Assembly: GCA_031835245.2 (NCBI GenBank)
Contig: JAVKOQ020000013.1
Location: 248,001-312,000, forward strand
Length of the DNA stretch: 64,000 nt
Origin: Balamuthia mandrillaris
Lineage: Eukaryota
Direction: 5' to 3'
This document shows positions 12,274-33,794 of the stretch, piece by piece (position 1 is the first letter of the stretch; each line of letters begins with the position of its first letter). The notes below the pieces were generated by a model. It ran no database searches and was not told where the DNA came from. It worked only from the letters and a program-made list of their open reading frames with translations. The translations under genes were made by a program, and so were the position numbers.

Positions 12274-15200
12274 CACTTTTTATCCTCTTGGATGCTGTTT
12301 GTGAGAGCTTGTTCTGAATTGTTTCCTTGTCTTTTTCCCATCGCACTCACCAAAACTCTATATGTTACTGCTTTCTCTGTTGGTGTTGACGAATTACAGT
12401 GGTGCCACCTGAAAACTGCGAAGAAGGAATAGATCCTATGGACCTAAAGTGGAAGTATAGAGGCCCACCAGACTCTCACTGCGCCGAAGACCCTTTCATA
12501 GGGTCGTGCTTTCAGCAGGTTTGCGGTGAAGAAGCTCTGGATGCTCATCTTCTTCTTTTGGACTCGGAACGGGAGAAGCACATTTCATTGGGACGGGAAT
12601 GGAGCTATCCTTCCATTAAGCCTGGCCATGTCTTACTTCATAAGAATTTGGCCAAGCAGGTACTTATTTCTCTTCTTCGTGCTTCGCTCATCGATCTTCT
12701 TTCTGCGTTCTTCCTTTCAGTACTCTCTTTCATATTTCTTAGTCTTTTTGCTTCCTTTCTTGCTTCTTGCTGCTTTCTGCGTTCTTCTTTTCTTACGCAG
12801 CCACTCAACACAAACTCAAACCCAAAAACCCAAACCAACCACAGTTAAAAGTTAAAAATGGGGATATAATTTATATGGTAATGGAGCTTTGGGACTTTTT
12901 CCCAGGTCTCTACGAAAAGCTCATGGAAGGTCTTTACGAAACGGACGACATTTATGTGTTCAGCGAGTGTTATTTTGCGCTCACCGTACAAGGCATCTAC
13001 GACGATCCGATGGGTAAAACAGAAGTCTCCAAGACCAACACCTTAATGATGGAATACAAGACGATGCTTCAAACGGTCTTTCAACAGATGCATCCGGACG
13101 TTCCAACCGAGATTCGACAAAGATGGAACCAAACGAACCTTTATGAGTATGCAAGAAGCATTGTACTGAACTATCCACCACCGAGAAGAAATATCTATCT
13201 CGACAATGACGTGGAGGCCATAAGAAAGGTTCCTCCTTCTTTTCTTATTGTTTATTGCCGCATTGCTTTATCCCCTTTTCATCAGTGTTTGCGTTACCAT
13301 TTTTTCTCAGTTACTCATATTGCATTTTCTCCCTCTCTCTCTCTCTCTTAGAGAGCAGAAAGGTTCGCGTCCAAGGTTGCCCATCGCATTGGTTTTGACC
13401 AAATAGACATGGACATGCCAGTGCTGAGCGCGTTGAACAAGACCAAGTTCTTCTCCATGTTCTTGGGCCTCATCTTGAACGTGGTCATCGCTATCCTGCT
13501 CTTTCTCAGCGCGTTGCTCATCTACAGTCTCCTCATGGTTAACGTGGAAACAAGGACCTTTGAAATGGGTGTCATGCGCATGATTGGCACTACTCGTTCT
13601 GGTGTTATCCAACTTCTTCTCTGTCAAGGTTCTTTGCTTCTTTATTTTCTTGTCGCTTCCTTGCCTCCTTGCCTTCTCTCTGTCGCTTTCTTTCTTCATG
13701 TTATCTTGACACCTTGTCTACTACTACCAAATCAAAACACAAAATAGCGTTTTCATATGCGGCACCATCGTGGGTATTAGGTCTAGTGGTAGCCCAATGC
13801 CTGATGTTCGTGGTGAAAGTGGCCTTTGAGGCTGCAGCGGGCGCCACCGTAGACGTCCAGTTGACATGGCCGGCCATCCTGTTAGCAACAGCGTTGGGCA
13901 TCCTCGTCCCTGCCATTGCTGCCATCTTTCCCATTCGTCACGCCCTCAGTAAGAACCTCCACGATTCTCTAGACATTAAACGCAACAAGGTTCAAGCTGT
14001 CTCCGTAAGTTTGGAACGTTCGGAGGATGCTTCCTTCAACTGGAGCGTTGTCATCATTGGCTCATTTATGGCGCTTGTGGGTGCTGGGATCTATTACGTG
14101 TTTCCTTTGTCGCTGCTTACGATGAATCTCACGTTCCTACTGAACATGTTCTTCACTTTGTTGATCGGTTTGTTAGCACTTTTTACTGCTATCTCCTCTC
14201 TTCTCCGCTTCTATTCTTTGTTTGTCGGGCATTCTAATTTTTGGATCCAAACAAAGGCATGTTGCTTGGATTGGTAATGCTGTCTCTCAACTTGCAGCCT
14301 CTCATAGAGAGAGTGCTGGTGGCAGTTCTGCTATGCTGGGAAAAAACCGCCATCCGAGCGGTAGTACTGAAAAACTTGGTGGCCCATCGCCCACGTAACC
14401 GCAAGACCACCATCCTTTACGCCCTAAGCTTAGGCTTCATCATCTTCATTATCATTTCCTATCAAAGCACCATCACTTCGTTTGTGAGGATGAAGGAGCA
14501 GGAGCATGGAACCTACTTGCAAGTATCGGCCAGTGGATTGGTGGATGATGGAGAGGAGGAGGAAGTAAAGCGGATTAATAACCTTTATGAACTGGAGAAA
14601 GTGTGTTCGGGAAATTCTGCTGTCACAGGTTTGCTTGTTGTTATTCTTCTTCTTCTTCATTCTCTTTATTGCTATACGTTTTCTTTGTTGTGACATTTTC
14701 CATAACTCAACAAAAAACCAACTTAAAAGGTTGCAGTTGGGTAACGCATGAATGGGATGATGCGGTCAGAGGAGCAGCAGGATCGCCCACCATGTATACC
14801 TTGGGCTTGACGTTCCACGATGGGCAGGACCTAAAGGGCATCGCCCCAGGGTTCTTCGACGTGGTCTTTCCAGAGTACTTGGTCATCCATAAGTATCGCG
14901 GCTACCCTCTTGGCATGAGTCTCTCCGAGCAGCTTTATACCGTACGGGGATCCAGCCGAGCTATTGTACGCTCTTCTTTCTTCTCTTCTTTTCTTTTCCC
15001 TCATGCTAACTTGTTCTTTAAAAACCTTAACAAAAAAACAAACAGATGGGCTCGTTGTATACATCAAAACTGAAGCTGGATCTCGATACGCCGTTCATAT
15101 GGAAGTTCGAGTACGATAGCGACGAGGCGGCAGCGCTCAATCTGTTGTCTACGCAGAACCTGACCATCATGGAGCCGCTCGCTTTCCTCAACACGTGTCC

Positions 15201-15870
15201 CAAGTTCCGAATGTCTCCCTTTCCCAGTGAGACCCATCAGGACGCCCTCGTTTCCTATCCCACATATCTTCGCCGCTCTTCTGGCTTGTTCTGGTCCGTG
15301 GAGGAGCTTCCGATGCGACTCTTTCTTGTCCAGACCAAAAAGGACGCCAGCGGCTCTGCCCTCGATGGGGTGGTAAAGGACCTAAAAGCCGCCATCGCGG
15401 GCCAAAACGGTCTGGACATATGGGACTATCGTGACGTGGTGGGTCCCCTGGTCACCGCCCAAACGATCCTCACCTACTTCTTTGGCTTCACCACCCTGGT
15501 CGCCATGCTCATCGCCTCCTTCTCCCTGACCTCCTCCATGTACACCAACATCTACGAGCAGAGCAAGGAGATCGGCGTGATGAGGGCCATCGGCATTGGC
15601 AAGTGGTGGCTGCGCCGGATCTACCTCTACGAGGCCTTCATCCTGGTCTTGGCCTCCTCCTTCTTGGGCATCCTGATCGGCTCCGCCGTGGGCTACACGC
15701 TGGTGCTGCAGAGGATCCTTTTCAGCCAGATCCCCATCCCCTTCGAGTTCCCGTGGCTTATCTTGGGGCTGGTCTTCGTGGCCTCCATCCTGTTCTCCCT
15801 CCTGTCCTCTTTGGGGCCGATCAACGCCGTCATGCGTAAACCTATTGTGAATATTCTTCGTTTGTTTTGA
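11633..15870 (+). CDS. FtsX/MacB-type (ABC3) transporter permease, two permease halves, 7 introns
   Basis: Repeated motifs NVETRTFEMGVMRMIG and NIYEQSKEIGVMRAIG, each followed by three TM helices; large extracytoplasmic loops; no ATPase domain. Confidence 0.85.
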
Positions 15871-15959: not shown

Positions 15960-16214
15960 TTCAGTTCTCTTCGAGTGGGGATAGGGGCATTACACAAGAA
16001 AGAGAGGAGGAGGTCGGATACGGCCATACTGCGGAGAAAGCACCGCTTCCCGTCCGATCAGCGAAGTTAAGCTCCGCCAGGCGATGTCAGTACTGGGGTG
16101 GGTGACCACCCGGGAATCCATCGTGCTGTATCCTCCTCCTTTTTATTTATTGTCCTCATTACTCTTCCTCCTTTTTCTTCATTGTTCTTCGGATTCTCTT
16201 TCGCTGTTCATTCC
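15960..16214. repeat. Left arm of ~255-bp inverted repeat containing a 5S rRNA gene
   Basis: Near-identical to the reverse complement of 17395-17651. Confidence 0.95.
16016..16134 (+). rRNA. 5S rRNA (copy 1)
   Basis: 119 nt GGATACGGCCATAC...GAAGTTAAGC...AGTACTGGGGTGGGTGACC...GTATCCT; ends pair; T-run follows; very close to the Acanthamoeba 5S as I recall it. Confidence 0.97.
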
Positions 16215-17394: not shown

Positions 17395-17651
17395 GGAATG
17401 AAGAGCGAAAGAGAACCCAAAGGAACAATGAAGAAAAAGGAGGAAGAGTAATGAGGACAATAAATAAAAAGGAGGAGGATACAACACGATGGATTCCCGG
17501 GTGGTCACCCACCCCAGTACTAACATCGCCTGGCGGAGCTTAACTTCGCTGATCGGACGGGAAGCGGTGCTTTCTCCGCAGTATGGCCGTATCCGACCTC
17601 CTCCTCTCTTTCTTGTGTAATGCCCCTATCCCCCACTCGAAGAGAACTGAA
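17395..17651. repeat. Right arm of inverted repeat containing a 5S rRNA gene
   Basis: Reverse complement of 15960-16214 with few substitutions or indels. Confidence 0.95.
17476..17594 (-). rRNA. 5S rRNA (copy 2)
   Basis: 119 nt; differs from copy 1 at two C/T positions (GTCAG/GTTAG and GTGCTG/GTGTTG). Confidence 0.97.
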
Positions 17652-17982: not shown

Positions 17983-19008
17983 ATGGGAGAACGAAAGGTG
18001 TTGAACAAGTACTACCCGCCAGACTTTGATCCCTCCAAAATCCCCAAGCGCAAACGCCCCAAGAATGAGCAAATCAAAGTGCGCATGATGTTGCCGATGA
18101 GCGTGCGCTGCACCACCTGCGGGGAGTTCCTCTACGCCGGCAAGAAGTTCAACGCCCGCAAGGAGACGGTCATCGGGGAGGAGTACCTCGGCGTCAAGAT
18201 CTTCCGCTTCTACCTCAAGTGCACGCGCTGCTCCGCCGAGCTGACCATCAAGACGGACCCCAAGAACAACGACTACACTGCCGAGTTTGGCGCCACGCGC
18301 AACTTTGAGCCCTGGCGAGAGAAGGACAAGGCCCTAGAGGAGGCCAAGGAGCAGAGGGAGAAGGAGGAGGAGGGCGACGCCATGAAGGCCCTCGAGAACC
18401 GCACTCACGACGCCAAGCTGGAGATGGACATCCTGGACGCGCTGGACGAGATCAAGACGCTCAACGCGCGGCACGCTCGGGTGAACATAGATGAGGTGCT
18501 GGACTGGAGGCAGAGGACGGAGGCCCTGTCGGAGGAGGCGCGACGGGCGGAGGAGGAGGATGAGCGGCTGCTCCAGTCGGTCACTTTTCACCACTCCTCT
18601 GCCTTTGTGCGGCGGATAGAGGACGATGATGGCGAGGACGGTGAAAGCATCGTTGGTGATGGAAAACAGAAAGGGGCGGAAGAGGACGTTGTGGCAAAGG
18701 TCAACAAGTCGTTGGCAGAGGCAGCCATCCCATCCCTGTTTTCTTCGCTGTCTTCTTCGCAGTCCCTGCAACAACCCGATCAGATGACAACACATCGAAC
18801 AACGACCACCACAACAACAACAAAGAAGAAGCCTGCTAAACCGAACAAACCCCTTATCGTGGTTCGTGCGGCAAAGACCAAAAAAGACAAGAAACAAAAG
18901 ACAAACAGCGACAACAGCCAAGAAACCCCTCCCAAGGAAGAAGAAAAGAACAGGGATGGAGAAGCGGAAGATGAGGATGACGGTGGACTCTCCCTTGTAG
19001 ACTACTAA
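17983..19008 (+). CDS. YJU2: Splicing factor YJU2/CCDC94 (Cwc16), intronless
   Basis: [21 protein letters not shown], CxxC pairs (CTTC, CTRC), KFNARKE and KTDPKN. Confidence 0.95.
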
Positions 19009-19057: not shown

Positions 19058-22000
19058 TTACTGAAAGATTGAGCGATCGACGGAACGGATGGCAATGTTC
19101 TTGGTGCCAGGGCGCAAGTTCTCCTGGTTCAAGAAGTTCAACGGGAAGAACACCAAATGGCCCTTCACCTTTCGAAGCTCTCTCTCGCAGCGACGCTGCC
19201 GCTCTTCCTCTTCCTCCTCCGACGATTTGGTGGTCATCATGTCGAGCGTGGAGATGGCATCTTGTGGGATGTCCTCAAACAGCTTGTCAAATACGTTTGT
19301 GTTGCGCATTGCAGTGGCTCTCCACAAGCCTTCGTATATGGAAGAGACGACTGGATCACCAACATCCACATCAGATGAAGACGAAGGAGAGCCATCGTCC
19401 TCGAGAAGGCCTAAATGTTCGCGCCAAAGACGTTGACGGAGGGTGTGAGCGAAACGAGACACGGCGAAGGGTTTTCCTGCCATTTGGGACTCGATCATGT
19501 CCGTGTCGCGGATCACTGCTGCTATTTCGCTGTCTCTGTCTCCCTTGAAGCTATTGTGTGGTCACGTGAGGAAAGTTTAGGAGAAATAAAGATAAACTGA
19601 GCAAAGAAGGCACGGATTATACCTTCGGTCGTTGAGATTAGCAGAGCCAATGATGACCACCCGATCATCCACAATCATCAACTTGCAATGCACATAAACC
19701 TGCTCTGTGACATACTTGCCGTTTAACGTTCCAAAGCTCCTCAATGCATGGAAGCTAACAAAGTCGGAGACCTGCAAGTCCCTGTAGTATTGCTCCTCTT
19801 TGCTGCCGCTCTTGGCCTCCTTTCTCTTCCTCTCAATGAACTGCTGTAATCGCTCCAAAAGAGAAGTGCCACCACGAGAGATGGTGCTGTACTGCCACTG
19901 CATGATGTACCGAATGGAGGCGCTCTCATCAAAGGCGCCGTCAGGGTTGACCGGCAGAACAACCACCACACGAAAGGTCTCGCGACGAGTGATTGCCAAC
20001 TCCACTCTCTTGGCGATGTGCTCCACGACCACGTTCTTGACGCCGCCGCCGGCCAGAGAGGAGATGAAGTACTGGTTCTCAATGTAGATAAAGTGTTGGG
20101 CTTTGTCGATAACGTCGAGATAGGCCCTGTAGACCGAGGTTTCGGTCCTGTTACCTCCCGACCATTCCGCGATGCTACGAATGAGCTGTATGGAGACAGT
20201 GTTGCTATGGCTGCAATCCTCTCCGAAAACAGCAGAAAGTAACGAAGAAGAAGAACACAATGGATCGCAGGTCTTGATCATTATGTAAGGCACGGAGCTC
20301 TCCCCGTTGGATTCCTTGTGATGGTTCCACCGTTGGATAAAGTTCTTGGCCACATCTCTGGCGGCCCAGCCATCCATCGCCATATGGATGTCATGCCACG
20401 CCATCCTTGGTACCTCGTTCCGGTCTATATGCTCTGTAAAGGGCTTCTCCGGTTTGGTGATGCCCCTAACGCGCGGGTTGATATAGTCCAAGCCAGGCCA
20501 ACAAAGCTGTAGATGGCAATCATCCACAATGCGATGGCGGTGAGTGTCCCATCTGCCATAGCAAAGGTCCAAACCGCCGATGAAGGCCAGGTCCATGTCC
20601 ACCACCACGATCTTTTGGTGGTGACTCCAACTGAGCTGCAGTGCGTTGAGTGGAGGGTGACGAAGCACGAGGATGTTTGGGTGAAGCGAATTGAGGCGGC
20701 GTTGGGTGGAGGCGCTGTTGAGCTTGACGGCGATGCTCGTCTCGTTCCAGAGAATGACAAAAATCTTCACTCCCTGCTTGGCTTTTCGGAGGAGAAGGCG
20801 GTCGAGGCGGTTCTCTATGGTGGCGGAGTTAGCGTGACGGCGAAGGTAGATTTCTGGGACTAGGAACCAGTCCGTGATGAAGATGGTTTCTTGTGCGGCT
20901 TCCATTGCGGTAGCTATCGCGTCGAAGGTGTCTTCTCCATCCACAAACCTATGTTTGTTTTAAAATAAAAAAAAACAAATGAGTAGCTTGATAAAGAGAA
21001 CAAGGGGGAGGGAGAGGAACCATTTTGCACGAATGCCTTCCCGAACAGGAGAGTAAGAAAAATGGGGATTTTGTTTGAAGGCGTCTGTCCACTTGTAAAT
21101 GGTGCCAACCCACTCTCTGAGTTCTTCCTGAGAGCTGGCCGTAAACACTCGAGAGCCTTTCGTGGTTGTTATCTTCATCATGTTGCGAGAACTGTCCACT
21201 CTCAGAGAACATCCATCCAATGCAATCACCGCTTTGACTTCACTGAGGGAGGCTTTGGTGTTGTGATGATGTGGTGACAGAGGAGGAGAGGATTCTCCTT
21301 GTTCATGTTCTTTGCTCTCTCTTCCAAATTGGATGACGAGGTCTCTTGATCTGGAACTGCCAGTCCGTTCTCTTGCTGTTTCGTTACTTAATCTTTTGTT
21401 AAAAATGTGGGTTAGAGAGAATGAGGATGAGAGTGAGGGGAAGAAAATAACACACTTTCTTTGAGGAAAGTCGCCTTCCAAGTCATCACTGCTGTTGGCT
21501 GTTGTTTGAGTTGTATTGCTCGCTATCAAAGAACGTTTTGTAGCAGTGGCTGCGGCCGCCACCGCCGCAGTGGCTGTAACACTCCCTCCAGGAACTGCAG
21601 TACCGTTGGTCGGTGTTGATCTACGCACACTGCCGTGTGAATGCTTCTCCGAGGAAGTAGAAAAAGAAGAGCGCAAAGACGACGATGCCAATGACGAACC
21701 CGAACCTTTAGCATTCTCCATTGTGGCTGAAACGCTCTTTTGTGATGCGGAGGAACCACCTCTTGTCAACGGCGTTTCTGGTTCATCTGTGCTGTACACA
21801 ACCAAAAAGCCGTTATGTACCCAACACATTCTCCTCCGATTGCTCACCAGAACGCCTGTCCTCTCGCTGCTGTACTCTCTCTTCGGGTCCAAGATGCTTC
21901 CGGCAGTGACCTCGTTGGAGCTCTCGTCGATGGCTTTGACAGTCTGTCCTTCGCGAAGACGGAGACGAGAGGCAATGACGGTAGCGAGGTACTTGTAGAA

Positions 22001-23750
22001 CTTGCCAGCAATGTCCGGCTTCATAGTGAAGAGGACGTTGATGAAGTGGCCATCCACATAGAAGAGCTCCACTCCATCCTCGGCGGCCCACACCGCAGCA
22101 CTGGCGGGGCCTCCGTCCAGAAAGCTTATCTCACCAAAGGTCTCGGACTCTCCCATTATACCTAGAACTACCACTTCGTTGCCTTTTGCTGTTGTTTTTT
22201 TGTTGTTACATGAGTCAAAAAAAGAAATAAAAAGGACAAAGAGTTCACAATGTAAAAATGAAAGAGGAAAAGGGAATGAAGAAAACGTACTCTGTACAAC
22301 TTTACATGTGCCTTTGCTTACAAAGTATATTTTTTGGTATACTTGTCCCTCCTTCACGATGACATCATCTCGATTGTAGGTCTCACATTTAGCGCCTTTC
22401 AATAGGATTTCCCAATCCGTTTTGGTGAGCATGTACTTCTCCTCCGCTGATAACGTTGTCTCTTCTTGTTGTTTTTCCTCTTTTTCTGCTTTGACTTCTT
22501 GCGATGACTACAACGAAAACGTGTCAATAAAACTCGAAAGAAAACCTAAAGTACAAAAAAAGAAAGAAACAGAAACGATAACCAACAACAACAACAACAA
22601 AATAGAAAGCAGTAGGAACATTACACTAAGTGCGGTAGGTTGGGTAGCAGTAGGGCTTTTCTTTGAGTTTTGCCAAATGTTCTGCAAGAAATGAAAGCAC
22701 TCCTCTCCTTGCTTCAAGTGCTTGAAATAATACTTGTGTCGTTTGGTGGTGACGGTTATCTGTCCGTCTTTACTCTTTTCGATGGCACTCACTTTGCTCA
22801 AAGGAATGGCCTCTTTGGTCTTGGCGTTGAAAAACTTAGCAAAGAAGCAGATGTAGTTTTGTGAGACGTAGAGTCGTCCTCTCTTTCTTCCAAGAGCACA
22901 ACGGTAATCTGATAGTGCAGTAGTATTACATACAAGAATAAAATATTTGTAGTAAGAGTGCGGGAGAGAGAAGGCAGCGATGTACCTTTGATCACAACTT
23001 CTTCCTTTGGGAGGCCAAACCTTTTGGTAAACTTGCGATCTTTCTTGCTTGTACCGGTTGCCTGCATGGAAAGGTGATACGTTTGTTTGGATTATTTTTT
23101 ATTAAGTTTTTTTTTTTCGTTTGAAGAATGAAAAGAAACAAGAAAGAAACGCACCAATTCGGTGGACTTAGCACCAGGAGGAGCAGGCGCTTTCTTAGGC
23201 GGCGGTAACTCTCTCAACCGCTTCGCCAAGTTCTGTGCCAAGTTCATGTAAAACCTCTTCGCCAATGCCGGCTCTGTCTTGAACAACAAGCTCCATTCCT
23301 TGATACCCAACCTCCACGCCTCCACGTCAGTGCAAGCAATAACGGAGGCGCTGCTTAATCCATATTGATCCAACACGGACATCTCTCCAAGAATGGAGTC
23401 AGGTCCCATCGTAGCCAAAGTGATTTTGCTGCTTTTGTTACTTCCTCCTCCTTCGCCCACTTCCTTCTCAATGCGAACCTCTCCCGATTTGATGCGATAG
23501 AGGTAACGATTGTAGGTGCCCTCTTGGATGATGACATCGTTGCGTTGGAAGGTAACGAGGGAGGCCACTTCCACCACTTTGTACCAATCTTGAGCGGTAA
23601 GCTGGTTCTCTTCCGTAGGAACGTGCTCTTTACCCATCAGTTGCTCGGTTATGTTACATAGTGACATTTCGTCGTTCTCGTGAAGTCTTTCTATGATGCC
23701 CGTGCTGTTTTATTGGTTGGTTAGGACAACGAAAACGGAGCAGAAAATGG

Positions 23751-23792
<42 letters not shown>

Positions 23793-25253
23793 ACTTGGCT
23801 TCCTCGACATCGTAGGAGAGAGCCAGAAGTTCGTTGTATTGAAGGATTGGTGCATTCAACAGATAGTCAGCCACGTGTTTTACGGGTTGTAGGCTGAGCA
23901 GATAAAGCCGCTGCCTCTGCCATCTTTGAAATTCCAGTATCTTTTTGGCTAGACGACGAGCCTTGTCAAAGTTTATCAACTGGCCTTGGTCCTTTGTGTC
24001 GGTATTGGTTTCGTCAATCAGCACTAACTCCACCAAAAATGCAGCTATTATATGAGAGAATGAGAGGAAAGAAGTATTATAAGTTTCAAAAGTAAATGGG
24101 ATAGCCAGCAAGAGAAAGAGTACGAAGATAGGGAATAGCAGCGGTGGAAGTTCCAAGTTTCTTCAGTGCCCGGCGATAGTTTCTAAAATTCCTGGATGGG
24201 TGCATAAGTTGCGTTAATGCTTGGAAGTGTTTGTAGGTTTCCGGTGACAAATACTATGAAAATACAAAGAACAAAACATAAAGCAAGTTTAATAAGCGTA
24301 AAAGGAACGAGATAGAAGAAGAGGATAGGAACCTGCCAAGTTTTAGTGAGACGGATGACGGGAGTGGAGTGAAGGGCCGTAAGTATCTCCATCACTCCCG
24401 TAAAATTATTCAGTTTCTCACAAACCTGTTTTTTTTTTAGGTTAGTTGGTAAAAAGGAGTCCACCAAATTAAAACATTCTAGTAAAACAATACCAAAGCT
24501 ATTTGCACAAACTTCGTAATAGCAGCTGCACATCGCTCCACAGTGGCTTGTGTAATTATCTCCGTTATTACCCAATACGATGTCTTTTTTAATGTTCACT
24601 TTTGTTAGCAATCCCTTTAGAAAGAACGTGAGAGAGAGAGAGAGAACCTGCTTGAACCACATCTCATAAGCCAACACATTGGGAGCATCTCTCTTCCTGC
24701 TAACGCTCAGCCACGCTTGTCGCAAGAACTCGTGTGGACGCATGGCACTAATCAAGTTATACTCCTGTAGCGTGAGCTGGTGAGCAATCTCCTCTGCCGA
24801 TAACTTCGCAAACTTGACAACGGCGCGATGAAAGTGTTGCTTTGGCAGAACTCCACCAGGATTGCGTACTGGCGGCGGGTGGACGAGATGATCTGTAGTG
24901 TATTTTTGGATCTCGGCGCGAAGTATTTTGGAAGCTTGTCGCAACATGCGGATGGCTTGGTTGTGCTTGACTTTGGGCACCTCCTTCATGAAGGCCTTGA
25001 GACGGCCTTGTAAAGGAATGTCTTCCACAAAGTCTTCGATTCGAGTGGCCAGCCAGCGATTTAACATTATTGCAACACTATTATCGTTTGTTGAATAAGG
25101 ATTGAAGATTTCGAGAAACTAAAAGAAAAAGCGTACCCCGTCCAGATTTTGTCCTTGTGAGACTGAAAGTTACATCTCACTTGCTCTCCGTGCATATTGG
25201 GGCATGGACCTCGAAACGTGAAGAAGAAAGGTCAAGGAGAGGACGAACATAGC

Positions 25254-25289
<36 letters not shown>

Positions 25290-26908
25290 GAAAGAATCAG
25301 GAAAAAAAGGATATCTTATGATGAGCAAGCTCAACAACCGTCGAGGAGTACAAAACGAGCGGTATGTGAGCAGAAAGTCATCCAAGAGAGTGTAATAGTC
25401 CACCGCATTACGCAAGTTTTTGGCTGAGACAGAAGATTTAAATATTCGTCTCTCGCCGGAGGAGGTGATGCTGCCGTCGCTGCTGTGGCTCCACTCTCCT
25501 GAAAATTCATCTTCCTCATCCACAGGGTACTCATCGGCTTCTTCTTCTCCTTCCTCCTGCAAACTGCCAGAAGTTTTTGCTTCCTTGTGAGAAAACGACG
25601 ATGATGCTACGGATAATGACGATGAGGATGAGTCAGAATCAGAGTCTCGTCTGTGCCTCCTTTCGACAGTTGGTGTTCGAGAGATTGCTGTATTTGGATC
25701 TAATACTTTGTCCGCTTCGAAGAAGGTCAGCTTCTCCACCAACTTCGCCAAGGTAGCAGCATGTATGACAACTCCATTTCCTTTGGTCTCTGTCCACAGA
25801 TTGTCCTCTGAGTCTGGCTCTCCAAACTTGTACTTGTAATAAGTAATGCATGGAATATTGCCTTCCAAGAATGTAAACAAACAAAGGAAGGAAATAGAGA
25901 GAGAGAGAGAGAGAAGCAGATAAATATCAAAGAAAATAACGAAAAAGAGAAAGGTGTCGTACGATCGAGAAGAGCAACCACATCCCTGTGACCTGCCGCC
26001 TCAGCGACATCGCTGGGTGTTCCCTGTAGGCCGAGAATCTCTGGGTCAGCACCATTATGCAACAGAGTATCCACCAACTTTAGGTTGCCAGCTCTAGCCA
26101 CCAAGTGTAAACATGTCTCTTGTTCTCTGTTATTATTTATTGTTATGGTAAATAACAGAGAGAGAGAGAGAATTCTCGCACACAAAACAAAAGGGGGGAG
26201 CACAAGCACAAGCACAAGGCTAAAGTAAACCAAAAGAAGAGATAGAAAGCAAGCGTACGCATTCAAAGCATCGATATCAGCCTTCTGGTCGATAAGGAAT
26301 AGCATCAGCTCTCCGTTTCCTTTCCTCGCGGCAACGTGCAACGGCGTCTCCTTCTTGTCGTTCACCGCATTGACGTCCGCTCCCCTCGCTATCATCTCCA
26401 AAATGCATTCATAAAAGGGAGAGTTTCTCCCCTCTTTCTCCATCTCGTCTGCCGTTTCTTTCTCCCCTCCTTCGCCATGCCTTCCTCCCGCGCTGCACTG
26501 AGCAAACAAGTGCAGCGGCGTGTTCTTGTGTCGATCCGTTTTGCTGACGTCCGCCCCATTCTCCAACAGGAAAGAGATGAGGCGGAAGCGCTCCTCGCTC
26601 TCCCTCTCGTCCTGTTCTTTGGAGGAGTGGTCGGCTGCTTCGTCTTGGTCGTCGGGAGAGCAGGCCACGTGCAGCGGGGTTTGGTCCAGCCTGTCCTCGG
26701 CGTTGACGTTGGCCTGGGTGGGGTACTTCTGGAGGAGGAAGCGGGCCAGGTCGAGGTTGCGCGTCTGGGCGGCGATGTGGAGGAAGGTGCGGCCCTGCTG
26801 GTCGCGGGCGTTGACGCTCTCCCCCTCTTTCCTCAGCAGCTTGGCGAGCTGCTTGAAGGCGCCCTTGTGGGCCAGCGTGTGCAGCGCCGAGGGGTTCGTC
26901 TCTGCCAT
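19058..26908 (-). CDS. Multidomain ankyrin - RasGEF_N - RasGEF(CDC25) - cNMP - GRAM - cNMP - PH - phospholipase D protein, about 2,150 aa, 16 introns
   Basis: All exons join in frame by manual splicing. ANK (TPLHVAA); REM (ATLAKLVEKLT, FLLTYRSF); CDC25 (IAHQLTL, LNNFTGVMEI, IPYL); cNMP x2 (LGEMS, FGEISFL); GRAM (GRLYVSQNYICF); PLD WFVDGEDTF with HKD motifs HHQKIVVVD and HCKLMIVDD...IGSANLNDRS. Confidence 0.88.
25218..25314 (-). other. U12-type (minor spliceosome) AT-AC intron
   Basis: 5' ATATCCTTT, branch TCCTTGAC about 13 nt before the 3' AC; removal gives in-frame LLIIR-FRGPCP. Confidence 0.92.
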
Positions 26909-27527: not shown

Positions 27528-27841
27528 ATGCAGAACGACGAAGGAGTGAACGTTGACCTTTACATCCCCCGCAAGTGGTACGTTTCTTTCAAACGTGACA
27601 AATCAATCTGAATTGTTTTGGGGTGGAACTGACTCTTTTCAGCTCCGCCACACACCGTTTGATCACTGCCAAGGATCATGCCAGTGTACAAATCTCCGTC
27701 GGTAAAGTAGACCAAGATGGCAAGCTCACTGGTGAAGTTGAGACCTTTGCTCTGTGTGGATACATTCGCGCCATGGGGGAGGCTGACTCCGCCATGAACA
27801 GACTGGCAAGAGCTAACGGCTACCTTTCCAGGGTGGAATAA
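27528..27841 (+). CDS. RPS21: 40S ribosomal protein S21 (eS21), 1 coding intron
   Basis: [34 protein letters not shown]. Confidence 0.97.
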
Positions 27842-28133: not shown

Positions 28134-31100
28134 CTAATAACTCTTCTCTTGCAACAACCCGTTCTCTTTCTGTGGCGGTGATTGTTGCTGAATGCCTTGC
28201 AACTGGTCAATAAGCTGCATCGTTTGCTTCAACTGTTTCTGCACGTTCGCGAGCTGTTCTCGTCGCACTACCTCACTTGCATCCATCTCCCGGTTCCTCT
28301 GCCAATATTGCCACTGCAATTCCACAAACTCTGACCAGCTCCTTCCTTCGTTCTCTTTTCCTCCTTTTTCTTCTCCCGCCACTAAACTCAACAACGAGTG
28401 TGTGAATGCCACTCGCTCTTGAAGTTGCCCATTGAGTCGATGGCTCTCTGAAAGAGCGCTTTCCAATGTGGCCAACCGCGATGACTGAGAGAAAAACATC
28501 GGAAGAAGCAAGCATAGAACGGAACCCCAAAGCACCAACAGTAAAACATGGCTGATCGTGACGCCGTTGAGGATAGACAACCGTTTGTCCAGCAAGGCTG
28601 AGGATGCAAGGGGAAGAGGCGTGGATGCTGTTGTAGAAGAAGGAATAGAAGGGAGAAGAGAAGAAGAAGAAGGAGGAAGGGCCATAGAATTGGGCGCTGC
28701 TGCTGCAGGGGCTGTAGCTGAAGCCAAAAAAGATGCTGTTGTATCTTTCTCTTTCTCCTTCTCTTTCGCTTTTGTTGCAGTCGTTTTTCTATCAGCAGAC
28801 TTTCTAACCGTTCCTTTGCCCTTCTTCGTAGACTTCTTTCTCGATGCTGTTTTTAGCTTTGAGGAAGAAGAAGCTTTTGAGGTATTAGCTGGCCTACTTT
28901 GTCGCTCCGCTGCTTCCTGTTGCTGCCTGGCAGCAGCAAGTTTGCGCGCTCTCTCCATCCATTCGGGAAAGAACGTCCGCATGCCCTCCAACGAGAACTT
29001 CTCGATCATGCTCTTCATCCAAAAGGACTTGGTGAAGACGACGCGGATGCGAATATTGACGTGGGTGGAGGCATCGTTCTCTCCCGTTGGGGTGAGATGC
29101 CATACCGCCTCCAGGTGGAAAGAATCACCATAGGGTGCATCTTTGGAGACGTTAAGTGTCTCCACGTGCAGGTTTCTTAGCACAAATAAATAAAAAATAA
29201 AAACAAAACAAAAAAGAAAAAACAAAAGTCAGCAGTGCTATGTTTAGTTTTACAAAGAAAGAGAAAGGAAAAGAAGAAACCGTTTGTTTTCGAAGCGTAT
29301 GCGTTGGGTTTGTTCTACGCGAGTACTCTTTGGGCCTGTGCAACAAAAAAAGTGGTGGTTAGATAAGCGAACGAGAGAAAAGAGAACGAGAGAAGCAGAG
29401 AAGAGAGCACCAACCAACAGGAAAGTTCATGGGAACTCGGAAGGTCATCAAACGAGAGGCACAACAACTAGCGCTGTCCTTGGCCCATGGCGTGGTTGTA
29501 AACTCTGTGTACTGCAAACTGCTATAGTGGTCCTCCCAAAAGGAAGTGCCCTCATCGCTCAAAAAGTACTCGTAAAACTTGGAGACAGGAATAGGCAACA
29601 CTTGATTCACTATTTCTTGACCATTGGTTCCTCCAGTGAAGTGGGTGCACTCAGGACCAAGAGGAACATCAATGGGCTTTGCTTCTTGCGGCTGCTCTCC
29701 GGGTTCTACCTCTGCTTCTTCTTCGTCTTCCTCGTCCTCCGAGTCTACCTCATCTTCTTCGTCTTCTTCTCCGCTTCCTCCCACTATGTCTGTTAAGTTA
29801 TCATATAGTTAGAATGTACAGATAAATAAGGAGCCAAACCAAAAACAAAACAAAAAAAAAACCAAAAAAAAAAAAAAAAAAGAGTGAAAGGGAGATAACC
29901 ATCTTCCATCGCAAATTGGCCTTCAGCAGATATTTTTCTTTTAGGAACCTTTGTCGCCCTTTTCGACCTGCTCTTCTTTGACTTTCTTCTAGGATAGGGC
30001 TTCACCCGTTTCATAGGTAATTGATCCGACCTTGCTCCCACATTCGGGCTTGCAACGCTAGAAGCCTGAACCGTCAACACATCGTTCGCAGAGGACTCCA
30101 CCATCTCCCTACGCGTGGGGCTCATCCTTCGCTCATCGGGAGGAGAGATGGAAGTCTCCGATGGCACATTGGATGCAGCCTCCTCATAGTCGGAGGGAGA
30201 GGGAGAAAGAGGATGATCCACCAGGTCTTCGCTCTTCCAATTTCTGGTGGGAGAGAGAGACTTTGCAGCGGAAGGAGGTGAGCCGCGTTGTTGTTGTTGT
30301 TGTTCTAGAGTCGAAGAGGCAGCTTGGACAGCAATCGGAGAGGAAGTTGATCGATGCAACTCGCGTTCTTTTTTCGATGCAGCAGTTGTAGGAACAGCGG
30401 AGGAGGAAGAGGAAGAAGGGGCAGCAGCAGAAGTCCAATCCTCTCCTACATACTCTCCGATCGTTTCCATGACTTTGTTCAGTGGCCAAGGTGCGGATTG
30501 CCGAAAACTAGCACGGCTCAGGTAGCTTTCGCTCTTGACCTTGTTGAGAGCGGGAGATTTTGTTGGTGTGGTAGTTTGTTGCTGTGCTTCTTGCGGAACG
30601 GCAAACATCACCTTTTTTTCAGAGGCGTCCTTGTGATCAGTGGAGGAGCGAGTCAAGCGAGAGCTGCTCGGAGGCGAAGGGGATTTCTCCACAGACCCAG
30701 ATCGTTGTCTTGTAAGTGTTTGTTTTAATGCGCTAAATTTTGACTTTCTATCTGTCCTGCTTTCTTCTTCTTCTTCTCCTTGTCCTCCTTGTTCTCGTTG
30801 CACCCCTTTTTCGTTACCATCCTCCTTCTCGTCTTCTTTGTCGTCATTTTCTCCCTCTTCCTCTTCTTCTTCGTCAGTAGCAGATGAAGAAAAAGAGGAG
30901 GCATCTTCATCGTCCGTGTTGTCCGTAGTTTCGCTTCCGTCTTTGTAGCTCTGATCTTCGTCGGAACCAGGCAAGTGCTCTTGCTCCGTTTGCTCTTTAG
31001 AAAAGGTAGTCAAGGGCTGACGCTTTGCACCCTCCCAAAGCGCAGTGATGAGATTGTAGGCTTGATCGCGGTGAAGGAAGGAAGCGAAGAGGGCTTTTTG

Positions 31101-32440
31101 CGATTTGGTAACAAACTCGATGGCGTTGGGAAATACAAGAGCAGTGTTACGCTTTGATATTTTAAGCACTTGGTCGAAAGGGAGTATTATCTGCATGTTT
31201 TGTATTTGTAAGTGAAGGAGAGAAGAGATATAGGAAACGAGAGAAAGGGGACGGGAGAATGAGAAAGAGAAAGAAAGTGAAATATGTGGCATCCATGGAT
31301 AAATCTCATTCCACAAGGAGTGTTGGCTTTTTCTCGAGCCAGCAAAAGAGATAAGTTGTTTCGTCATGATGCACAAAGAATTTTTCAAAAAAAAAATTGC
31401 TATGCTTTTGTTGTTATATGGCCGGTGCAAACCACAAAAGCACATAGTTTCGCTTTCACGGGTTCGTGAGGCCAAAGAGAGAATAGAAAGAAAAGGGACG
31501 ACGAGAGAGAGCAAGAGCAAGAGCAAGAGCAAGAGCAAGAGCAAGAGCAAGAGCAAGAGCAAGAGCAAGAGCAAGAGCAAGAGCAAGAGCAAGAGCAAGA
31601 GCAAGAGCAGAGAGGAGGTGGAGGAGAGAAAGCGAGAAAGCGAGAAAGCGAGAAGAGCAGCGAAAGAAAGAAGTGGAAGGAGGTGAAAGAAGAGGAAGGA
31701 AAGGGATAACATACCCTGGTCTTTTTAAATATCTGAGAATGAAAGCATGCAAAGTTTTTTGAAACATACATTCTGCCATGGTACAGCATGCCCTCTTTGT
31801 TGTATGCGCAAGAGTAATCTATATTTCGACCGTAAACGTGAGAGTCAGCAAATAAGATGGAGAAAAGAGTGAAGATCAAGCAGCAGAGAACAGGAGAGGA
31901 GAATCAAAAAGAGTGAAGCAAAGAGAAAGTAGGAGAGAACGTGAGAGAGAACGAAAGAGAGAGACCATTCAGAAGGGATTCCGTAGCAGGAACATCAAAA
32001 AGCAACAGAAACTCGTCCTGTTTCTTCGAAGTGGTCACTACGCCATTGCCCTCTTCCTCATCTTCAATAGAGTCCGAAGACGGATCCTTTCCCTGCAGTA
32101 CTTGTTCTGGTTGTTGTTGCTGATCTCCCCCTCCTCCAGCAGATGGCAAAGAAGGAGAAGAAGAAGAAGGAGATGGAGATGAAGAAGAAGAGGAGGAAGA
32201 AGAAGAGCGAGAAGGAGGAGAAGCTTCAGCGCTGTTGTTGTGGCCTTTGCTTGACGAAGGAAAAAGAAGAGCAGCAGCTGCGTCTACGCTGTGGTTGCTG
32301 TTTGTCTGTAGCTCATCGTCATCCTTGGCTGCTTCCTCTTCCTCTTCCCGATGCGAGGAAGAAGGAGGAGGAGATACCGCACCAAGAGGGTCGCGCGAGA
32401 GACGAACAGAAGAAGAAGGCTGTTGTGTTTCACTGGCCAT
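28134..32440 (-). CDS. GRAM plus VASt (StARkin) sterol-transfer protein, GRAMD1/Aster/Lam family
   Basis: YSCAY...HGRMYVSKNFACFHS and KRNTALVFPNAIEF (GRAM); DAPYGDSFHLE and FTKSFWMKSMIEK (VASt); C-terminal TM helix and coiled coil. Confidence 0.88.
31508..31608. repeat. (GAGCAA)n hexanucleotide microsatellite, intronic
   Basis: About 16 tandem units. Confidence 0.95.
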
Positions 32441-33094
32441 GTGGGTAGACCTCCAAAAAAAAGTAAAAGCAAAGAAAAGAGAGAAGAAAAAAAGAGTCGC
32501 TGGCAGTGATCTACACAGTGGTGGAGGGAGGAAGGGGGAGGGGTATTAAAAATATTACAAGTGGAGGGAGGAAAAGTATGAAAAAAAAAAAGAGAGAGAG
32601 AGAGAGAGAAAGAAGAGGAAGAGAAAGGGAAAAAAAAAGCAAAGAGGGGGGTGGTTGTCGGTCGACCGTTCGATGAAATGAACTAAACGAGTATTAAAAA
32701 AAATATGTATAACAAAAAGGTGTTTCTGAAGAAGAGAAGAGGCTTATTTTTTTGGGTGCTGCTCACCGCTTTTCTGCTTCAGTGGTGGGAGATCTCCAAT
32801 AAAACTCCTTTTGGTGCGCTGCTGGATAAGAGAGAGAGAGAGGAGAGATCTTCGTGGTTTTGTAGAATGACAGAAAAGAAATGGTAAGGGCCAAAAGGGC
32901 AGCAAACCAAGTCCTTGCGCTTTCCTGCTGCATTACGCAGGGGAAACTGGTGTCGACACGGACCGCTACCACAACGAACCATTTCGCGTCGGTCATGGAG
33001 AAGAGATTCTTTGCAGCGGCCCTTTTCGTGTCGTCTTGATTTATTTAGCTACTTTCGTGACGTCACGAAAGGGTGAAGCTGGAAAAAAAAAACA

Positions 33095-33722: not shown

Positions 33723-33794
33723 TCCCTTGTGGTGTAGTCGGTAACACTTGTGGTTTTCACCCACACACCCCGGGTTCGATTCCCGGCAAGGGAG
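33723..33794 (+). tRNA. tRNA-Glu(TTC)
   Basis: Acceptor stem TCCCTTG/CAAGGGA, anticodon arm TGTGG-TTTTCAC-CCACA, T-loop GGTTCGATTCC, downstream T7 terminator. Confidence 0.95.

What the first reader, a model, noticed from the sequence alone, without database searches (positions are those of the whole stretch)
19058..26908. Single gene fusing the GbpC/GbpD-type cyclic-nucleotide Ras-GEF module to an intact phospholipase D
Seen: I could splice 17 exons into one uninterrupted frame reading ANK repeats - REM - CDC25 GEF - cNMP - GRAM - cNMP - PH (split by a Ser/Thr-rich insert) - PLD with both HKD motifs. The cNMP2-to-PH stretch is one open ORF, and the PH exon joins the PLD exon at W-FVDG. Established: REM-GEF-cNMP-GRAM-cNMP is the module of Dictyostelium GbpD and the C-terminal half of the Roco protein GbpC; canonical PLD1/2 carry PX-PH instead. 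Inference: this may be a self-contained signalling machine coupling Ras/Rap activation and second-messenger sensing to phosphatidic acid production. I know of no described protein with this architecture.
Basis: partly seen in the sequence, partly recalled or inferred. Interest (0 to 1): 0.9.

Follow-up and report, generated by a model that had tools for sequence, protein, structure and literature searches.

The report
Nucleotide-sensor switch fused to phospholipase D
This amoeba gene is spliced into one 2,161-residue reading frame that joins a Ras-activator and cyclic-nucleotide-sensor module to a complete phospholipase D; the same fusion occurs in other amoebae, and it is predicted to turn a cGMP signal into local production of the signalling lipid phosphatidic acid.

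Summary
RNA supports all 16 introns (14 by read joints, 2 by an assembled contig). The 17 exons give one frame of 2,161 residues: ANK–REM–RasGEF–cNMP–GRAM–cNMP–split PH–PLD. The PLD keeps both HKD motifs, and intron 3 is an AT-AC minor-class intron. The gene is not a one-off. The same core architecture occurs in four Planoprotostelium fungivorum paralogues, one Protostelium nocturnum protein and one unnamed JGI protein; no ankyrin repeats were found in these. Their modules group apart from GbpC and GbpD-like proteins (SH-aLRT 98–99) and share the cNMP2–PH junction, so one old fusion is likely. Ten literature searches found no description, but an unseen 2018 supplementary figure probably draws the Protostelium proteins. 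PLD activity is very likely. Nucleotide binding and exchange activity are open: the cassettes lack the PKA arginine (as does a GbpC orthologue), and the GEF hairpin is partly deviant. Both halves are promiscuous fusion partners in amoebae, which lowers the surprise. Verdict: new variant of known kinds, interest 0.5.

The parts
19058..26908 (-). Whole gene: 17 exons, 6,486 nt coding, 2,161 aa
25963..26908 (-). Exons 1-2 (26908-26259, 26126-25963): ankyrin repeats; none found in the six homologues
   Evidence: Pfam Ank E 5e-32; homologue scans
24950..25861 (-). Exons 3, 4 and start of 5: REM (RasGEF_N) with a Ser/acidic insert; bounds approximate
   Evidence: Pfam RasGEF_N E 1.4e-9; alignment; SOS1 match
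25218..25314 (-). Intron 3, 97 nt, AT-AC ends with U12-type donor and branch-point-like sequence (consensus recalled)
   Evidence: joint 25217/25315 in 6 + 12 reads; ends printed
23795..24810 (-). CDC25 RasGEF domain over exons 5-9; helical hairpin partly deviant
   Evidence: Pfam RasGEF E 4.9e-17
23155..23704 (-). Exon 10: first cNMP-binding domain
   Evidence: Pfam E 5.9e-14; cassette comparison
22625..23061 (-). Exons 11-12: GRAM domain
   Evidence: Pfam E 2.3e-13
21950..22507 (-). Exons 13-14: second cNMP-binding domain, ending in a long helix towards the PH domain
   Evidence: Pfam E 1.8e-11; model and fold searches
21077..21871 (-). PH domain split by a disordered Ser/Thr-rich insert that contains intron 14 (21455-21393)
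   Evidence: intact PH in P0003, P0015, P0016; S+T 0.37
19061..21050 (-). PLD1/2-type catalytic region, end of exon 15 through exon 17
   Evidence: homologue P0001 against human PLD1 E 5.6e-116
20597..20620 (-). HKD motif 1 (His at codon 1666)
   Evidence: sequence
19667..19690 (-). HKD motif 2 (His at codon 1976)
   Evidence: sequence

Best explanation
The gene encodes one soluble multidomain protein in which a GbpC/GbpD-type RasGEF-cNMP-GRAM-cNMP module is joined through a PH domain to a complete PLD1/2-type phospholipase D, and it likely works as a cGMP-switched membrane enzyme that makes phosphatidic acid and, probably, activates a Rap/Ras GTPase at the same spot. Shown: gene structure, expression, domain order, catalytic motifs and conservation of the fusion. 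Inferred steps: (1) cGMP binds the cNMP domains, as in GbpC. (2) GRAM and PH take the protein to the membrane. (3) The helix that ends cNMP2 runs into the PH domain and would pass the change on to the PLD. (4) The GEF loads a Rap-type GTPase, as GbpD does. (5) The ankyrin repeats are a lineage-specific docking arm.
For: RNA joints link every neighbouring exon pair. One 2,886-nt contig spans the REM end to the PH insert and another spans the PH C-half into PLD; no place was found where many molecules begin or end. Both HKD motifs, the IYIENQYF motif and the PRMxWHD and basic membrane motifs are kept. Six homologues have the same order. The cNMP2-PH junction profile finds the window exon (51.6 bits) and P0009 (69.1 bits), neither of which built it; all other proteins among the 287 score under 20 bits and only in the PH part. 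The model shows a continuous helix, residues 144-176, from cNMP2 to just before PH strand 1. Both cassettes keep Gly-Glu and a Ser after the arginine site, like the Tieghemostelium GbpC orthologue; the first cassette of a Heterostelium GbpD-like protein has lost this pattern. GbpC binds cGMP at 4 nM (PMC8684759, passages). The GbpD GEF acts on Rap1 and GRAM aids membrane binding (PMC11988041, passages).
Against: No binding or activity data exist. The PKA-type arginine is missing in both cassettes; it is also missing in all 92 other family members aligned, so sequence cannot decide. GbpD's cNMP domains are called non-functional in PMC3188802 (passage), although PMC11988041 says both proteins bind cGMP. 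The GEF hairpin has Pro and Val where 16 and 12 of 21 relatives have Gly and Thr (the Pro is a split codon read by eye). P0015 and P0016 have lost Gly-Glu in their cassettes, and P0009 scores weakly as a GEF. The model's pTM is only 0.45, so the cNMP2-PH orientation is not fixed. In the PLD tree the fusion clade has support of only 37.
Confidence: 0.4

Rival explanations
1. Nucleotide-blind, GbpD-like protein: the cNMP folds are structural, and the protein is a GEF-PLD controlled by lipids, phosphorylation of the Ser/Thr inserts or partner binding.
For: No canonical arginine. GbpD's cNMP domains are described as non-functional (PMC3188802, passage). Two homologues have lost the Gly-Glu pair. 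In mammals PLD2-made phosphatidic acid places Rap GEFs at the cell front (PMC7325102, abstract), a link that needs no nucleotide.
Against: The window's first cassette resembles the GbpC orthologue more than the GbpD-like protein, and the window protein, P0001 and P0002 keep Gly-Glu in both domains.
Confidence: 0.3
2. Pseudo-GEF: the CDC25 domain only binds a GTPase or has decayed, and the module serves to regulate and place the PLD.
For: The hairpin departs from the family consensus in the window protein and more so in the Protostelium paralogues. Pfam RasGEF scores are 42-124 bits in the six homologues, against 87-198 in the 24 of 30 module proteins scanned that have a RasGEF.
Against: REM and all CDC25 blocks are present. 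The NNF block is nearly identical to SOS1, and the acidic and Asn positions of the hairpin are kept.
Confidence: 0.25
3. Two neighbouring genes (a GbpD-like GEF and a PH-PLD) joined only on paper or by read-through.
For: No long read or single contig covers the whole transcript; two introns rest on contigs of one run.
Against: cNMP2 and the start of PH lie in one exon with no stop. All joints keep the frame. Homologues in other amoebae, one from a transcriptome, have the same junction.
Confidence: 0.03

Closest known systems
Dictyostelium GbpD (GefU)
   Same: REM-RasGEF-cNMP-GRAM-cNMP in the same order (PMC11988041, passages).
   Different: GbpD ends after cNMP2; this protein adds ANK, PH and PLD. 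The module does not group with the Heterostelium GbpD-like protein P0169 (that P0169 is the GbpD orthologue is inferred from its architecture).
Dictyostelium GbpC (Roco protein)
   Same: Same C-terminal module with similar non-canonical cassettes, and the same logic of a sensor-GEF fused to an output enzyme.
   Different: No LRR, Roc, COR, kinase or DEP. The output enzyme lies C-terminal and is a lipase. There is no internal GTPase, so the GEF target must be a separate protein. Not sister to the GbpC orthologue in the tree.
PLD1/2-type phospholipases D (human PLD1/2, plant PLD-zeta, Dictyostelium PldA-C)
   Same: PH followed by two HKD halves with the subfamily motifs; homologue P0001 matches human PLD1 and PLD2 structures at E 5.6e-116 and 1.5e-112.
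   Different: No PX domain. Dictyostelium PldB has a Ca2+-binding region before PH, and none of its eight PLDs is described with GEF or cNMP domains (PMC13187810, passages; SI figure not seen).
Animal phospholipase C-epsilon and Epac (recalled, not tested)
   Same: PLC-epsilon joins a CDC25 GEF to a phospholipase; Epac joins cNMP domains to a Rap GEF. This protein resembles both in one chain.
   Different: Different lipase family and domain order; an analogy, not homology of the architecture.
Planoprotostelium fungivorum PRP76312, PRP80093, PRP79034, PRP76252; Protostelium nocturnum EukProt EP01117 P014287; JGI protein P0001
   Same: Same core architecture and junction; PLD exon 45-60% identical.
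   Different: No ankyrin repeats found (P0001 starts inside the GEF, so its N-terminus is unknown); shorter inserts; uncharacterised. PRP76312 also carries a MoaA radical-SAM tail that looks like a gene-model merger.

Membership tests
PLD1/2-type (PXPH) phospholipase D | Two HxKxxxxD motifs with the following G-G/S-x-D/N | tested here: met
PLD1/2-type (PXPH) phospholipase D | IYIENQ(F/Y)F and PRMxWHD motifs, basic phosphoinositide-binding stretch | tested here: met
   the role of these motifs is recalled
PLD1/2-type (PXPH) phospholipase D | PH domain before the catalytic core | tested here: met
   Pfam just under cut-off; model matches solved PH domains, Z 12.7 and 11.9
PLD1/2-type (PXPH) phospholipase D | PX domain before PH | tested here: not met
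   cNMP2 directly precedes PH; no PX hit. It works like PLD1/2 but is not a PX-PH PLD
PLD1/2-type (PXPH) phospholipase D | Hydrolysis and transphosphatidylation activity | not testable with these tools
   needs an assay
GbpC/GbpD module family | REM-RasGEF-cNMP-GRAM-cNMP order | tested here: met
GbpC/GbpD module family | Orthology to GbpC or GbpD | tested here: not met
   the fusion modules form their own side of a branch (98-99) against a GbpC orthologue and a GbpD-like protein; tree unrooted, D. discoideum proteins not in the set
GbpC/GbpD module family | cGMP binding | tested here: inconclusive
   Gly-Glu kept; arginine absent, as in the whole family
CDC25-type RasGEF | REM plus conserved CDC25 blocks and intact helical hairpin | tested here: inconclusive
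   blocks present; hairpin partly deviant
Roco proteins | Roc-COR tandem | tested here: not met
   no such Pfam hit in any frame of the gene scanned, unlike P0141
U12-type (minor) intron, intron 3 | AT-AC ends, extended donor consensus, branch point close to the 3' end | tested here: met
   splice ends from reads, sequence; consensus recalled, not scored with a model

The most novel reading that the evidence does not exclude
An ancient amoebozoan family of directly cGMP-gated phospholipases D with a built-in Rap/Ras exchange factor, the PLD counterpart of PLC-epsilon. It dates to near the root of Amoebozoa and was lost in Dictyostelium, so the main model amoeba could not reveal it.
Probability: 0.3. 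Interest if true: 0.75.

Novelty: new variant of a known kind. Interest (0 to 1): 0.5.

Why it matters
I know of no phospholipase D controlled directly by a cyclic nucleotide (recalled; my ten searches found none for this architecture). If the sensor works, one protein would tie cGMP, Rap/Ras activation and phosphatidic acid together at the membrane. In animals and Dictyostelium that link is spread over several proteins and shapes cell polarity and macropinocytosis. The family also offers a natural series, from intact to decayed sensor and GEF domains, to learn how the arginine-less GbpC-type cassette binds cGMP. It is less surprising than first thought: the module also turned up fused to RhoGEF, kinase, C2, WD40, PP2C and Roco parts, and amoebal PLDs fused to kinase-SH2 parts.

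Tried and rejected
No whole genome is held, so paralogues and synteny were not examined. Two word-index protein searches with the GEF module returned only the query or unrelated cNMP proteins; they say nothing about absence. The metagenome scan with P0001 found no locus, so its N-terminus is unknown. The ESM Atlas gave no usable hit. Earlier findings of the scan: three look-ups, nothing. The complex predictor was not available, so docking of cNMP2 on the PLD was not tested. Foldseek on the model listed only cNMP folds among the rows shown; the PH match came from the wide search. A PH-only alignment was misaligned and not used. The careful PLD tree did not finish; the quick tree is reported, with P0010 left out. 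Five long-branch rows were dropped from the second module tree. The primary GbpC papers PMC2662088 and PMC3268432 are not held. A secreted or membrane-spanning enzyme is unlikely: no hydrophobic stretch above 1.53 in the 12 of 17 exons scanned, and 0.63 in exon 1. The search for minor introns in Balamuthia found no paper.

Full report
Observation. The gene lies on the minus strand from ATG 26908 to the stop at 19058-19060, between a head-to-head RPS21 gene and a tail-to-tail YJU2 gene. I read candidate introns by eye and tested them with RNA. Laying three raw RNA runs of one study and one contig set of another gave joints for 13 introns (two further rows were not shown) and for intron 3, so 14 of 16. 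Introns 2 and 9 lie beside GA repeats that the tool skips and are shown only by continuous record numbering in X1 contigs. A contig of run X3 covers 23798-25245 without joints, so these introns are present in DNA. With these bounds the 17 exons sum to 6,486 nt, and no exon has an internal stop in the implied frame. Depth in the two deeper runs is low (about 3-18 per bin) with no break inside the gene, and no place where many molecules begin or end was listed. The libraries look unstranded, so the strand comes from the splice ends. No long reads were available. The longest contig (2,886 nt) runs from the end of REM to the PH insert, and a 1,127-nt contig runs from the PH C-half into the PLD. 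The gaps between contigs at introns 3 and 14 are bridged by 18 and 11 or more reads.

Domains. Pfam finds Ank, RasGEF_N, RasGEF, two cNMP domains, GRAM and two PLDc stretches above cut-off, and PH at 24 bits, just under it (frames scanned stop to stop, so with some intron-coded residues). An AlphaFold model of window 21023-22447 (25-row alignment, mean pLDDT 66.7, pTM 0.45) gave a confident cNMP fold. It also gave three strands and then four strands plus a helix on either side of a disordered insert, and a continuous helix from the end of cNMP2 towards the first PH strand. The wide structure search matched residues 5-174 to cNMP domains (best Z 16.6) and 183-475 to PH domains (Osh3 Z 12.7, rmsd 1.9, 85 aligned; ASAP1 Z 11.9). 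The PLD keeps both HKD motifs and the PLD1/2 subfamily motifs.

Relatives. The PLD exon, searched against proteins of 773-2,205 aa, gave 2,341 hits, of which 120 were listed. Six of the 120 carry RasGEF, cNMP and PLD together, and the top three hits are among them. They are an unnamed JGI protein (60% identical), four Planoprotostelium fungivorum proteins and one Protostelium nocturnum transcriptome protein. No ankyrin repeats were found in them. A search of the 50%-clustered library with the first 660 residues of the JGI protein listed 150 hits. Only 2 of the 150 have a PLD. In 30 scanned with Pfam the module sits with RhoGEF, kinase, C2, WD40, PP2C or Roco parts, or alone. Of 20 looked up, those with a taxon name are amoebozoans, including a Tieghemostelium GbpC orthologue and a Heterostelium GbpD-like protein.

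Origin. In module trees the fusion proteins form one side of a branch with SH-aLRT 98 (45 rows) and 99 (42 rows, mixture model, GbpC orthologue added, five long branches dropped). The window is represented only by single exons, the trees are unrooted, and the set was collected with a fusion protein as query. The PLD tree (55 rows, quick search) has the seven fusion rows together with support of only 37, so one origin is neither shown nor rejected there. A profile of the cNMP2-PH junction built from five homologues recovers the sixth and the window exon along its length, and nothing else among 287 proteins beyond the PH part. One fusion event is the simplest reading. The window's GC is 46.8%, matching 46.4-46.8% for Balamuthia mandrillaris assemblies (PMC10471605, passages), so that organism is a likely but unproven source. 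If so, the family spans Discosea and Variosea, two deep amoebozoan branches (classification recalled). D. discoideum's eight PLDs and five cNMP proteins are described without such a fusion (PMC13187810 and PMC3188802, passages), which would imply loss there; transfer between lineages is not excluded.

Function. PLD activity is very likely (about 0.9). For the sensor, both cassettes keep Gly-Glu but lack the PKA arginine. None of 92 other family members aligned has it in either domain, including the GbpC orthologue. D. discoideum GbpC binds cGMP at 4 nM (PMC8684759, passages). GbpD's domains are called non-functional in PMC3188802 but binding in PMC11988041 (passages). The window's first cassette looks more like the GbpC orthologue than the GbpD-like protein. 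The Ser after the arginine site fits cGMP preference (rule recalled from PKG). For the GEF, REM and the CDC25 blocks match SOS1 (E 6e-10) and weakly a Ras exchange-factor structure (2ije, E 0.011), but the hairpin departs from the consensus of 21 relatives at two commonly kept positions (SOS numbering recalled). I put a cGMP-switched PLD with a working GEF at 0.4, a nucleotide-blind GEF-PLD at 0.3, a pseudo-GEF at 0.25 and separate genes at 0.03.

Literature. Ten full-text searches found no paper describing a RasGEF-cNMP-PLD protein; the library lacks most subscription journals. The P. fungivorum genome paper (PMC5804921: passages, supplement part 4 and two supplement searches) reports 'six homologs' of GbpC and GbpD. 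It says Fig. S14 is annotated with domain architectures, but the passages I saw do not mention a PLD on them. The figure is a picture I could not see and probably shows them. The Physarum paper (PMC4758236, passages) lists other partners, no PLD; its Fig. S17 was not seen. PMC7325102 was seen as abstract only, PMC1273635 as passages. PLC-epsilon and Epac are recalled.

Verdict. The feature is real, expressed and conserved. It is a new combination of two known kinds, forming a small uncharacterised amoebozoan family, with the ankyrin arm so far seen only here. Interest 0.5; 0.75 if direct cGMP gating is shown.

Noticed in passing
window 25218-25314 (-): AT-AC minor-class intron inside the REM-coding region, spliced in 18 reads; it implies a minor spliceosome in this organism. 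Other minor introns in the window were not sought.
   Followed up: partly
window 16016-16134 (+) and 17476-17594 (-): Two 5S rRNA genes in inverted orientation about 1.3 kb apart, between protein genes (Rfam); also a tRNA at 33723-33794.
   Followed up: no
window 17983-19008 (+): Intronless YJU2/CWC16 splicing-factor gene whose stop lies only 50 bp from the stop of the PLD gene, so the 3' ends probably overlap.
   Followed up: no
window 27529-27841 (+): RPS21 gene, head to head with the fusion gene across about 620 bp; possibly a shared promoter region.
   Followed up: no
window 28134-32545 (-): Neighbouring gene with GRAM and VASt domains (LAM/Aster-type sterol transfer protein, family name recalled).
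   Followed up: no
window 15031-15870 (+): FtsX-like permease C-terminal domain in a eukaryotic gene.
   Followed up: no
P0002 (PRP76312.1) residues 1714-2007: MoaA radical-SAM domains follow the PLD's normal C-terminus; probably two genes merged in the annotation.
   Followed up: no
P0004, P0013, P0018: A second amoebal PLD fusion, kinase-SH2-PLD, in Acanthamoeba, Luapelamoeba and Balamuthia; one group in the PLD tree (support 88).
   Followed up: partly
window 20057-20101: Loose read ends at the conserved PLD motif, probably from paralogous PLD transcripts; two reads also join 25558 to 19202, both in repeat-like acidic stretches.
   Followed up: no
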